Shown piece after piece: positions 16,727-21,110 of a stretch of 64,000 bases of DNA. This DNA comes from the human T2T-CHM13v2.0 reference genome, Homo sapiens. The notes beneath the pieces were generated by a model. It was not told the DNA's origin. It worked only from the letters and a program-made list of their open reading frames with translations, and ran no database searches. The stretch's first letter is position 1. The number at the start of each line of letters is the position of its first letter. The position numbers were made by a program, and so were the translations under genes. The DNA lies in NCBI RefSeq assembly GCF_009914755.1, contig NC_060939.1; one strand, given 5' to 3'.

Positions 16727-18244
16727 CGGTGGCCATAGAAGCCCTCCTGAGCAGCAGGCAGAACAGAATCCACTATAGCAATCAGCCTGCCGGGGAAGCC
16801 TCTGCCCCTGTGGCCTGAGGTTCCAGTTTCCCCAGGTGACACCATGGGCAGGTGGGCTGAAGAAGTGGGAAGGTCAAATCAACTGGCCCAGCCAGGATGC
16901 CTCTTTGATGATACAAGTGATACCGGTCTAAGCCTCGCCTCTTCCACAGGGGAAACTAGGTGGCCCAAAGGGTGCCCAGAGGCAGGGGACCTGCCACAGC
17001 AGCCACCTTCCTGAGAGATTCCCTTTCTTCCCCTTGGTGAACTCCCTCCAACACACAGCTTGCCAGGAAAGCACCCTGTGTCTTACATGGGGGGATCCCA
17101 TGACACCAAAACCCAGCCAAAGAAGCCTTTTGTCCCTTAAGGGTTATCACAACCAAAAACAAAAAGATACACAAATAGTAAGCCCCTAAATTCTGTTAAG
17201 AATGAAACAATGTTGCCACTCACACCTGGCTCAGATGCCAGCAGAAGGAGGGCACCCTCCAGAGACCAGAGACCACAGGAGAAAGGGGAGGACTCCTCCT
17301 TGCCCTGGCTGCACCTCCACCACTGTCACTGAGGCCTGCAGTACAGAACCAGCAGCTTCTTACCCACCCCAGGCCAGGCCGGGCCCCAAAGCTCTCCTAC
17401 TTCCCCTTCCTGGCCCCTAGACTTGCTGCTGCTGCCACCATTAGTGCCGACGCCAAAGGAATCAGCGCTGCTGTCACCCTCCATGCACCTGCCCACCCTC
17501 CATGGATCCTACCACTTGGCCTCCACGGGTACCCTCCTATTGCTCCTGTTGAGCTGCTGTCTCCATCACCGTGGCTGCCACAACCTCAGAAGATGAATCA
17601 CAGAGCTGTGCCGTCTTCAGGCTCCAACCACCAGCTCACCACAGGGGACTCCTCCTTCATCAGCCTGGCTTGGAGCAGCTGGGCAGACAATGCCAGAAAA
17701 ACCTACAATAGGATGCAGAAAGTGGCAGTGTTAGAGCCTCACCCTGTCATGCTGCCCACTGGGTGGCTGGGGCTGGTTTCAGCGAAGGCACTCATACCCA
17801 CCCTCCAAAGTCCAGCCTCTCCTCCTAGACCAAGCTGGCCTCCTGACCTGGGGTGGGGACTGGAGACACCACAGTGTCCGCGGCTCCTTGGGGAGCAAGA
17901 ACAGCAGAAACTCAGACCCAGCCAGTCCTCCCAACCCAAGTACCAGTTCCCATTCCTTACTCCTCCACCCACAGGACCCTGAGCCCCCGTGGTGCCCACT
18001 ACTACATGCCTGGGGCTCCCAGATGGTCCCCACAACACAGAGCAAGAGGGCAAGGGCCGGGTAACCATGGTGGGTGTGAGGGCCCTGCGGTGGTCAGAGG
18101 ATTGCCGCAAAAACTCTGTGCACCTCCGCACTCCAACACGAGCAGAAGTTGTTCACACTCTAGAGCCTTGAGTCCGGGAAGAGGAGAAGGGCCCCTTCCT
18201 CAGAGGCCACCACTGTCGTGGCCACCTCCACAACCTGCCGCTGG

Positions 18245-18985
18245 AAGCAGCAGTGCAGCTTCCCCCCATAGCGCCCCTAACCTGCCCCCTCCACCACAAG
18301 CTTAGCCCCCGGATTGTGCCCACAACACACCCAGAGACTGCTGCAGGCAGTGTAACACTGATAGCGCCCGCAAACGAACCCTCTGCTCCTGGCAGTGTAA
18401 CACTCGATAGTGTCCACAACCCATCCCCACCACGGGTGTTGCAGCACCAAATAGTACCCCATCAAACCCGCCCCCCACCCGGACCACAAGCAGTATAGCC
18501 CCAGATAGCACCCCCAGTCTGCTCCTGTCACAGGCAGTGAACGCCCGGGGTAGTGCACCCAACAAACCCCTGGACCCCACCTTCCCCTTTCCCCCACAGA
18601 CAATGCAACATTTCACAGCTCCCCTAAAGCACCCCTGACTGCCTGCCAGTTGGCATTGTTGCTGACATTGTAGCTCACGATAGCTCACCAAACCCACCCC
18701 CTGCATCGGCCAGTGTAGCAGCTAATAATGCCCCTAATCCCCCACCACCCGCCACTGGCAGTGCACGATGGCACACACAACCTGCCTCCAACCCCCCGCC
18801 ACCTTAGGCAGTGTAGACTCTGATAGCGCAGCAAACCTGCCCCACTGCCAGCAATTCAACACCTGATAGTGCCACCCACCAGCCCCCCACGGCAGGCAGT
18901 GCAGCTCCAAAAGCACACCAAACCCGCTCCCCCACCACCCCGCAAGCGGGCAGTGCAGCTGCAGAGAGCGCACCTACCCTGCCAC
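18245..18985 (+). repeat. Degenerate ~43-55-bp C-rich satellite (~16 units)
   Basis: Recurring GGCAGTGYAGC-N4-GATAGCGCMCC-AAACCC(C-rich) at ~18249, 18347, 18391, 18489, 18533, 18709, 18757, 18807, 18895, 18949 and degenerate units between. Confidence 0.85.
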
Positions 18986-18989
18986 CTTT

Positions 18990-19380
18990 CTACTACTCTA
19001 ACAGAGATGCAGTCTCCGTCGCCACCTCCAACCACAGCCAGGTGAGCCGCGGTGGCCTAGGCTCCAGCCGCCAGCGTTGGGCATGGTCCCCACCTTCTCC
19101 TAGACCTCTAGCCGGTCAAGAGCAGCTCCAGCTGCCAGCCACCCTCCTACCGCTCAGGCTGCACTCTTACCGCTCCGGCTGCCATCTTACTGCTCCAGCC
19201 CCAATCCTACTGCTCAGGCTGCCCTCCTAACACTCCAGCTGCGCTGCCATCTCTGTTGCCACCACCATCCAGAGCGAGACGAGCCACGGTGTTACAGGCT
19301 CCAGCCTCCAGCTCCCCCTTCTCCTGGTCCTCTAAGCCGGGAACAGAGCAGCTCAGCGGGAGATACCGGAGACCCTAAAC
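18990..19380 (+). repeat. ACRO1-like satellite monomers with an internal 5 x 20-bp repeat (19141-19242)
   Basis: Two related units 'gcagtctccgtcgccacc.ccaacc.cagc.agg.gagcc.cggtg....aggctccagcc.ccagc...ttctcct.g.cctcta.gccgg'; a diverged third unit at ~17550-17710; ACRO1 similarity is from recall. Confidence 0.6.
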
Positions 19381-19816
19381 TGGCGTGAGGCCTACTCAGC
19401 ATGCACATGGGGTTACGCGCATGGTTTCTGGACTACGTGTTCTGATTGGGTGAGAGAAAATCTCTAGGCCTTCTCTGATTGGACTTTATTTTCATACACT
19501 GATTGGTTGTCCTAAGACTTTCTTTCATCCAATCAGAACATGATAACAAAGTCCAATCAGAGTAGGCCTCTGGGCTTTCTCTTATCCAATCCTGGAACGT
19601 GTAGTCCAGGAACCGCATATGCATAACTTCAGTACATAAATGGTGCTGAAGAAGAGTCAGGCTTTCCAGGTTCTTCTGTGTCTGCTCACCGAGCTGCTCC
19701 AAGCCCGGCTTAGAGGACCAGGACAGACTGGAGGCTGTAGCCTGCTGCACCGTGGCTGGCCTCCCTGCAGTTGGTGGCGACAGACACTGTAGTGTGGCTG
19801 GAAAGGTAGGAAGGGG
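19221..19816. repeat. Imperfect inverted repeat (palindrome), ~290-bp arms, centre 19517.5
   Basis: 19323-19341 cctggtcctctaagccggg is the exact reverse complement of 19704-19722; inner arms 19412-19509 and 19526-19627 align throughout. Confidence 0.93.
19440..19645 (+). promoter_or_regulatory. Candidate NF-Y (CCAAT) promoter with TATA-like box
   Basis: ATTGG at 19445, 19478, 19502; CCAAT at 19529, 19553, 19586; TACATAAAT at 19633-19641. Confidence 0.6.
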
Positions 19817-21110
19817 AAAATAGTGTTGGGATAGATGGAAGGGTAAAGAGGGTGGTTAGTGCCAAAAGGAAAAAAGGATGGCGAGCCGGAGAAGGCATTG
19901 CATAAAGACGGTGAGGAAAAGATGCTGGGAAAAAAAAAATTGGGGGGTAGATGGAGGGGGAAAAACAGGGTGGTGAACAGGAGGGAGGGAAGGTTTCACA
20001 GAAAGATGGTGGGGAAAAAGTTTTTGGGTAAATGGAAGGGGGTAAGAAAGGGTCGTGAGAGGGGAACGGGGATGAGCAGGAAGGAGAGAAGGTTTGCAAA
20101 AATATGGTGGGGAGAGAAGAAAGGGAAAGAAGACTGTGGGTAAAAAGATTTTGAGTAGATGGAGGGGGGAAAAGGGTGACAAGTGGGAGGAGAAAAGAGG
20201 TTGCAGAGAGGGAGGGGGAAGAGAGAGTGGTGAGCAGGAGGGAGAGAAGGTTTTGCAAAAAGACAGTGAGGAGAGAAGCTTTTGGGTAGATGGAGGGGGG
20301 AAAGAGGGTGGCCAGTGGGAGAAGGGTAAAGAGGGTGGCGAGCGGGAAAGAGAAAAGGTTTTGCGAAAAGACGATACGCAGAAAAGAAAGTGTAGAAAGA
20401 AAAGACAGTGGGTAAAAAGTGTTTGGGTAGATGGAGGGGGAAAAGAGGGTGGCAAGCGGGAGGAGAATAGAAAGTGTGGCCAGAGGAAGTGGGGAAAGAG
20501 GACTGGGAAAACGGCGATGGGGAAAATAGTTTGGGGTAGATGGAGGGCAAAAAGAGGGTGGCAAGCAGGATAGAGGAAAGAAGAGGGCGAGCGGGAAGAG
20601 GGGAAGGCTTTGTGAAAAGATGGCAGGGAAAAATTGGGGAGGTAGATGGGTTAAAAGAGCGTGGTGAGCAGGAGTAGAGAAGAGGCTTTGCAAAAAGACG
20701 GCGGGAAAATGTTTTTGGGTAGATGGAGAAGGGAAAGTGTGGCAAGGAGGAAGGGAAAAAAGACGATAGGGAAACAGTTTTTGGGTAGACGGAAGGGGAA
20801 AGAGAGGGTGGCGAGAAGCAGGAGTGGGGAGAAGGCTTTGGGAAAAGATGAGGGAAATGTTTTTGGGGAGATGAAGGAGCAAAAGAGGATGATGAGAGCG
20901 GGAGGCGGAATAAAGGGTGGCCAGAGAGAGGGAGAAAAGACGGTGCGGACAAGTTTTGGGGTAGATGGGTGGGGAAAACGGAAGTGAGCGGTATAGTATA
21001 GAAGGCTTTGCAAAAAGACAGTGGGGAAAAAATGGTGGGGAAAAAGTTTTGGGGTAGATGGAGGAAGAAAAAGGGTGGCGAGAGAGGGAGCCAAAGACGG
21101 TCGGGAAAAA
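19817..21110 (+). repeat. Purine-rich degenerate tandem repeat (~65-140-bp units, ~13 copies)
   Basis: Recurring TTTTGGGTAGATGGAGGGGGAAAAGAGGGTGGC...AGAAGGCTTTGCAAAAAGACGGTGGGGAAAA. Confidence 0.88.

What the first reader, a model, noticed from the sequence alone, without database searches (positions are those of the whole stretch)
16727..21110. Self-contained 4.4-kb cassette: satellite | ACRO1-like units | palindromic promoter | G-skewed repeat
Seen: this Alu-free, GC-rich block sits between a truncated Alu (16726) and an L1 fragment (~21112). The + strand is C-rich left of the palindrome (47-bp satellite, 20-bp repeat, ACRO1-like monomers) and G/A-rich right of it, so GC skew flips at the palindrome centre. 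Transcripts running outward in either direction would therefore both be G-rich. Inference: a duplicated composite promoter module that carries its own R-loop/G4-prone flanks and spreads with segmental duplications. It may overlap ACRO1 or the T2T 'ajax/teucer' composite annotations, which I cannot verify.
Basis: partly seen in the sequence, partly recalled or inferred. Interest (0 to 1): 0.7.

Follow-up and report, generated by a model that had tools for sequence, protein, structure and literature searches.

The report
BAGE gene start on REP522 palindrome
This block is the first two exons and upstream DNA of an unannotated chromosome 15 copy of the human cancer/testis gene family BAGE, sitting on a mirror-image stretch that is very likely the known repeat REP522 and likely acts as its promoter, so it is mostly known biology.

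Summary
The parts are real, but the block is not a new self-contained cassette. On the minus strand it holds exon 1 (start codon 19185) and exon 2 (17702-17598; Pfam BAGE, E 3e-13) of a 39-codon BAGE gene; four published BAGE methylation primers land in it with 0-1 mismatch. The left edge (16729|16730) is the fusion point with a chr7 (KMT2C-region) duplication; the right edge (21112) is a junction shared only by 11 BAGE-clade loci. Older copies run past both edges. The palindrome (19222-19814) occurs in a family of at least 53 loci on 13 chromosomes and is very likely REP522 (literature links; consensus not testable). Each arm carries three CCAAT boxes, and in older copies an octamer and TATA box; the boxes vary less than neighbouring bases (p=0.003). 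The arms are older than the dispersal and do not homogenise. ACRO1 (no 147-bp period) and ajax/teucer are rejected. Sperm-versus-soma methylation of BAGE loci is already published. New here: an unannotated chr15p copy and the mirrored promoter anatomy, not found in my searches.

The parts
16729..16730 (.). Fusion junction: chr7:153.59 Mb-derived block (ending in a truncated Alu) to the left, palindrome-family block to the right; likely the junction that made full-length BAGE genes
   Evidence: chr7:153,588,022-153,589,569 matches window 15150-16729 at 94%; copies on chr5, 9, 18, 21 match from 16730 and have a different shared left flank
17598..17702 (-). BAGE exon 2 coding part (34 codons plus stop), AG acceptor at 17704-17703
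   Evidence: translation; Pfam PF08180 BAGE E 3.3e-13, 49.8 bits vs cut-off 20.9; acceptor kept in BAGE-clade copies
18230..18990 (.). Degenerate ~45-47-bp C-rich tandem repeat in BAGE intron 1; holds both published reverse COBRA primer sites
   Evidence: primers at 18641-18670 and 18802-18826
18985..19135 (.).
   Evidence: 71% to the left arm, E 7e-14; 72% to the right arm; family D12
19144..19229 (.). 20-bp repeat that supplies the BAGE start codon (19185-19183) and the GT donor (19170-19169)
   Evidence: chr13:10.86 Mb copy has one more unit
19171..19367 (-). BAGE exon 1; 5' end inferred at about 19367 from the names of the two forward primers (+32, +99)
   Evidence: primers map at 19311-19336 and 19246-19269 with 0 mismatches; the reverse-primer numbers do not fit this numbering
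19222..19814 (.). Palindrome, very likely the REP522 core; predicted mirror-image bidirectional promoter
   Evidence: miR-5701 mature sequence matches 19531-19549 with 3 mismatches, 0 of 100 shuffles
19445..19590 (.). Six CCAAT boxes in mirror order: reverse at 19445, 19478, 19502; forward at 19529, 19553, 19586 (33- and 24-bp spacing)
   Evidence: 4 of 30 box columns vary against 61 of 146 other core columns, p=0.003
19617..19640 (+). Right-arm octamer-like site (19617-19624) and one-mismatch TATA box (19633-19640); the mirror TATA in the left (BAGE-direction) arm is deleted in this clade and the 5q copies
   Evidence: alignments; pattern search
19800..21112 (+). G/A-rich degenerate tandem repeat downstream of the right arm; ends at a junction shared by the 11 BAGE-clade loci
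   Evidence: older copies continue about 40 bp further into a different shared AT-rich repeat; right flank shared at 94-100% by 11 loci only

Best explanation
The block is the 5' end (exon 1, intron 1, exon 2 and upstream palindrome) of a BAGE gene copy on chr15p, and the palindrome, very likely REP522, likely works as a methylation-controlled promoter that fires in germ cells and demethylated tumours. Shown: the exons, the open 39-codon frame, both junctions, a PHD-type exon 54 kb downstream on the same strand, and the mirrored CCAAT/octamer/TATA layout. Inferred history: a CCAAT x3-octamer-TATA promoter was duplicated head to head once, before dispersal; the unit spread passively inside larger segmental duplications; one branch gained a new right flank, recruited a start codon and donor from a 20-bp repeat and an exon from an arm-like unit, and was then fused to a KMT2C-derived block. 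Inferred mechanism: NF-Y on the six boxes opens the core; DNA methylation and H3K9me3 shut it in soma. Activity of this particular copy is untested.
For: Pfam BAGE; exon 1 frame and donor; 4 of 4 published primers map; chr7 junction; PF13771 exon downstream and in matching orientation at 7 of the 11 BAGE-clade loci; family of at least 53 loci; left and right arms form separate clades, within-locus arm identity 0.70 = between-locus 0.70; box conservation 97% against 89% for other core bases and 86% for a shared flank; literature: BAGE from KMT2C reshuffling, BAGE loci methylated in soma, about 0% in sperm, hypomethylated in cancer, REP522 at the BAGE locus with H3K9me3, REP522 promoters activated in cancer, miR-5701 in Rep522.
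Against: No expression, binding or methylation data for this copy; RefSeq annotates no gene here. The BAGE-direction TATA is deleted and the right one mutated. CpG observed/expected is only 0.30 for the block and 0.48 around exon 1, below island thresholds. Non-box core bases are hardly more conserved than the flank (89% vs 86%), the boxes were picked from the window copy, and 10 of 66 box slots in 11 representatives are changed or deleted. The REP522 consensus was not available. The name KMT2C for chr7:153.3-153.6 Mb is recalled. BAGE was not expressed in hypomethylated ICF cells, so demethylation alone is not enough.
Confidence: 0.85

Rival explanations
1. This copy is a silent BAGE pseudogene; the palindrome is a neutral passenger of acrocentric short-arm exchange and its motifs no longer function here.
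For: No annotation; left TATA deleted; 97-99% identity to six other short-arm copies fits bulk exchange; most core conservation equals the flank rate.
Against: All six CCAAT boxes, the start codon, donor, acceptor and frame are intact; a downstream PHD-type exon is linked; the family is reported expressed in testis and tumours.
Confidence: 0.35
2. One reading: a self-contained 4.4-kb cassette that moves as a unit and uses R-loop/G4-prone flanks.
For: Nine loci match nearly the whole 4384 bp; many alignments stop at 21110; skew makes both outward transcripts G-rich.
Against: Those loci share flanks with the window on one or both sides; older copies cross both edges; no terminal repeats among the inverted repeats listed; 0 strict G4 motifs on the G-rich side.
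Confidence: 0.05
3. The palindrome is kept as a cruciform or hairpin (DNA breakage hot spot or miR-5701-type precursor), not as a promoter.
For: Core folds strongly as DNA (z -13) and RNA (z -8.4); both BAGE junctions lie within 3 kb; miR-5701 is homologous.
Against: Arms are only 70% alike and not homogenised; conservation peaks on the boxes; copies on chr9 lost two right-arm boxes by deletion; Rfam gives only generic hairpin hits far below gathering scores.
Confidence: 0.08

Closest known systems
BAGE (B melanoma antigen) gene family, Pfam PF08180
   Same: Exon 2 matches the family; published primers map; linked to a KMT2C-region block; juxtacentromeric/short-arm location
   Different: Lies on chr15p, not among the chromosomes 9, 13, 18, 21 listed for the twelve loci, and is unannotated; stop after codon 39 and Trp at position 30, unlike the 43-codon chr13:10.86 and 13.84 Mb copies; this form is recalled as BAGE4-like, not checked
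REP522 (about 1.8 kb, largely palindromic interspersed repeat)
   Same: Palindromic, interspersed, at BAGE, homologous to miR-5701; palindrome plus G-rich flank spans about 1.9 kb
   Different: Extent against the consensus not testable; the mirrored CCAAT/octamer/TATA layout was not found described in my searches
ACRO1 / ACRO composite
   Same: C-rich, on acrocentric short arms
   Different: No 147-bp unit, no 1.3-2.4 kb array, no 6-kb tandem composite; single dispersed copies
TELO_Comp (ajax 49-bp array, teucer)
   Same: A 49-bp array exists elsewhere in the window
   Different: It lies 19 kb away, and its region matches PAR1 of X/Y and BAGE-linked loci rather than subtelomeres; the repeat in the block is 45-47 bp and degenerate
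Histone H2B-type octamer-TATA-CCAAT promoter (layout recalled)
   Same: Octamer followed 6-7 bp later by TATA: 7 of 32 genome-wide exact hits are family loci and one lies at chr6:27.0 Mb
   Different: No homology tested; could be convergent; the window copy itself does not match the exact pattern

Membership tests
BAGE genes | BAGE domain (PF08180) above curated cut-off | tested here: met
   49.8 bits vs 20.9 on exon 2 alone
BAGE genes | 5' region recognised by the published BAGE primers | tested here: met
   4 of 4 primers, 0/0/0/1 mismatches
BAGE genes (full-length) | Fused to KMT2C/MLL3-derived downstream exons | tested here: met
   chr7:153.57-153.59 Mb match 92-96% up to 16729; PF13771 exon 54 kb downstream, same strand; gene name of the chr7 source recalled; other downstream exons not examined
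BAGE genes | Cancer/testis expression and somatic methylation of this copy | not testable with these tools
   Family-level data only
REP522 | Match to the Repbase/Dfam consensus | not testable with these tools
   No consensus held
REP522 | Largely palindromic, interspersed, about 1.8 kb | tested here: inconclusive
   593-bp palindrome, at least 53 dispersed loci; element length cannot be fixed without the consensus
REP522 | Coincides with loci that papers call REP522 (BAGE, miR-5701) | tested here: met
ACRO1 / ACRO composite | 147-bp unit in 1.3-2.4 kb arrays | tested here: not met
   No period 147 by TRF or autocorrelation; definition
ACRO1 / ACRO composite | Sequence similarity to the ACRO1 consensus | not tested
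   No ACRO1 sequence obtained; genome searches listed no tandem short-arm array hits, but they skip very common words
TELO_Comp | 49-bp ajax array bounded by teucer | tested here: not met
   None in 16727-21110; definition
Mobile element | Fixed ends in unrelated flanks | tested here: not met
   Copies share flanks by clade; edges are internal breakpoints

The most novel reading that the evidence does not exclude
REP522 is a head-to-head duplicated NF-Y/octamer/TATA promoter of histone-H2B-like design whose CCAAT boxes have been kept by selection across more than 50 segmentally duplicated human copies; it acts as a portable gene-birth module, firing in germ cells, 8-cell embryos and tumours, and BAGE's coding sequence arose de novo from its own repeat units.
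Probability: 0.3. Interest if true: 0.55.

Novelty: new member of a known kind. Interest (0 to 1): 0.24.

Why it matters
Identity is ordinary: BAGE and REP522 are known. The useful additions are a complete list of BAGE-clade loci in T2T (11, including unannotated chr15p; 7 with the KMT2C-region exon), which bears on pooled BAGE methylation assays, the exact fusion base, and a testable cis-element model for why REP522 promoters switch on in cancers and early embryos.

Tried and rejected
Transposon reading: the apparent shared right end is an artefact of the query's own junction. Arm homogenisation by gene conversion: rejected (highest within-locus identity 0.78 at chr22:21.07 Mb). G-rich repeat as the mirror image of the left repeats: scores equal to shuffles in 3 of 3 tests. 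Mirror open frame 19640-19789: no Pfam family, though it shares a unit with exon 2 (77% over 47 columns). Rfam: 8 hits, all below gathering score. General link to ANKRD26/CCDC144-type genes: only 13 of 53 loci within 150 kb of a PF14915 hit, no background computed, so not claimed. Literature searches without a relevant hit; PMC8524813 has no REP522 passage in its main text. The 2016 Cancer Research paper was not held. Sequence of 24 of the 53 loci was not obtained, so their motifs are unexamined apart.

Full report
Observation. The block is real. A self-comparison finds one inverted repeat, 19222-19814, 69% over 623 columns, centred near 19518; its 197-nt core folds at -56 kcal/mol, z -13. A 20-bp repeat (19144-19229), a degenerate 45-47-bp repeat (about 18230-18990) and a G/A-rich repeat (19800-21110) are present. 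GC skew is mostly negative on the left, near zero over the palindrome and +0.7 to +0.87 on the right. There is no 147-bp period, the defining ACRO1 unit (PMC7714431, parts 1-2 of 5 and passages; PMC12767296, passages). Strict G4 motifs: none on the + strand, three on the - strand at left.

It is a BAGE gene start. The minus strand of 17702-17601 is an open 34-codon exon after an AG acceptor and matches Pfam BAGE at E 3.3e-13. Five codons from 19185 end at a GT donor, giving 39 codons if spliced (inferred). The four COBRA primers printed in PMC3757347 (parts 1-2 of 3) map at 19311-19336, 19246-19269, 18802-18826 and 18641-18670 with 0, 0, 1, 0 mismatches. Against a simple switch: BAGE stayed silent in hypomethylated ICF cells.

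The edges. Left of 16730 the window matches chr7:153.57-153.59 Mb at 92-96%, ending at 16729. Copies on chr5, 9, 18 and 21 match from 16730 and share a different left flank of at least 2.5 kb. A PF13771 exon lies 54 kb downstream on the same strand, and likewise at six other loci (40-55 kb); on chr7 the distance is 143 kb, so the block is internally deleted or rearranged. PMC11838408 (passages) states BAGE1 arose by reshuffling of KMT2C/MLL3; that the chr7 source is KMT2C is recalled. On the right, 11 loci share the flank beyond 21112 at 94-100%, whereas 13 older loci held (L015, L016, L020-L030) continue the G-rich repeat about 40 bp into another shared AT-rich repeat, for over 2 kb where 10-kb stretches were held. 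Both edges are therefore young junctions, and the unit travels inside larger duplications.

The family. (40 of 145 and 40 of 66 candidates scored; 150 of 186 matches listed) give 53 loci on 13 chromosomes by my clustering of the listings, a lower bound; one search points to two more on chr15. I held sequence for 29; the core was found in 28, with all six boxes intact in 14. REP522 is described as a 1.8-kb, largely palindromic interspersed repeat enriched among cancer-activated promoters (PMC4896275, conference abstract), present at the BAGE locus under H3K9me3 (PMC3560060, passages), up at the 8-cell stage (PMC6545021, passages) and in tumours (PMC11353194, PMC6925957, passages). miR-5701 is said to overlap Rep522 (10.1101/2021.12.09.471935, passage); its mature sequence (PMC8722767, table row) matches 19531-19549 with 3 mismatches (0 of 100 shuffles) and the chr22:21.07 Mb core with 1. 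I put REP522 identity at about 0.9; the consensus was not available.

Anatomy and mechanism. Each arm reads outward: three CCAAT boxes (24 and 33 bp apart), a conserved 14-mer, an octamer-like site, a TATA box. An exact octamer-TATA pattern has 32 genome hits (control 8), 7 at family loci. In 11 representatives under 90% identity, 56 of 66 boxes are intact, 4 point-changed, 6 deleted; 4 of 30 box columns vary against 61 of 146 other core columns (p=0.003). Among nine older copies identity is 97% in boxes, 89% in other core bases and 86% in the shared flank, so only the boxes stand out, and they were chosen from the window copy. Left and right arms form separate clades in a tree of 10 loci (18 of the 28 left out as near-duplicates or partly deleted), with no arm homogenisation: the inversion preceded dispersal. 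In the BAGE and 5q copies the left TATA is deleted, so BAGE would start from a TATA-less, CCAAT-driven arm. That CCAAT binds NF-Y and the octamer binds POU factors is established knowledge; that they do so here is inferred.

Comparison and novelty. Member of BAGE: tested, met. REP522: very likely. ACRO1 and TELO_Comp (10.1101/2021.07.12.451456, passages; its supplements were not seen and may annotate these units): not met. Searches showed no description of a chr15p BAGE copy or of the mirrored motif layout, but the key primary papers (Ruault 2002 and 2003, Grunau 2005, Kaczkowski 2016) were not read. Verdict: a new member of known kinds, with a modest, testable addition. Interest 0.24.

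Noticed in passing
window 40332-41963 (and 39300-42600): 49-bp tandem array, 33 copies; the region matches PAR1 of X/Y at 85-90% and ten short-arm loci, so it is a PAR1-derived block, probably not ajax.
   Followed up: partly
G000 chr14:3.58 Mb, chr22:6.68 Mb, chr21:6.92-6.95 Mb: Three loci carry the PHD-type exon and the PAR1-derived block but had no match to the BAGE 5' block; on chr14 and chr22 the chr7-derived match stops at window 1385 and the PAR1 block follows 12 kb later instead of 38 kb, suggesting promoter-less copies.
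   Followed up: partly
L010 (chr21:10,712,662): This copy joins window 2147 directly to 17598, a 15.4-kb deletion right after the exon 2 stop codon that removes the fusion junction, plus a 432-bp deletion in intron 1; likely BAGE2 (recalled).
   Followed up: partly
upstream of the window, -75009..-68947 (-): The annotated lncRNA LOC105379557 lies on the BAGE strand about 90 kb downstream of exon 1 and may be the 3' end of this BAGE copy; rests on a recalled BAGE2 length.
   Followed up: no
L030 (chr13:18.10 Mb): The palindrome core matches the window better in reverse (77%) than forward (70%), with a central deletion: possible inversion between the arms.
   Followed up: no
window 46037-47174 and 25674-25768: Further tandem arrays: 26-bp unit (44 copies) and 19-bp unit (5 copies).
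   Followed up: no
L013/L014 (chr5:178.35 and 176.58 Mb): A 67-bp unit corresponding to window 16885-16950 is tandemly expanded in the chr5:178.35 Mb copy.
   Followed up: no
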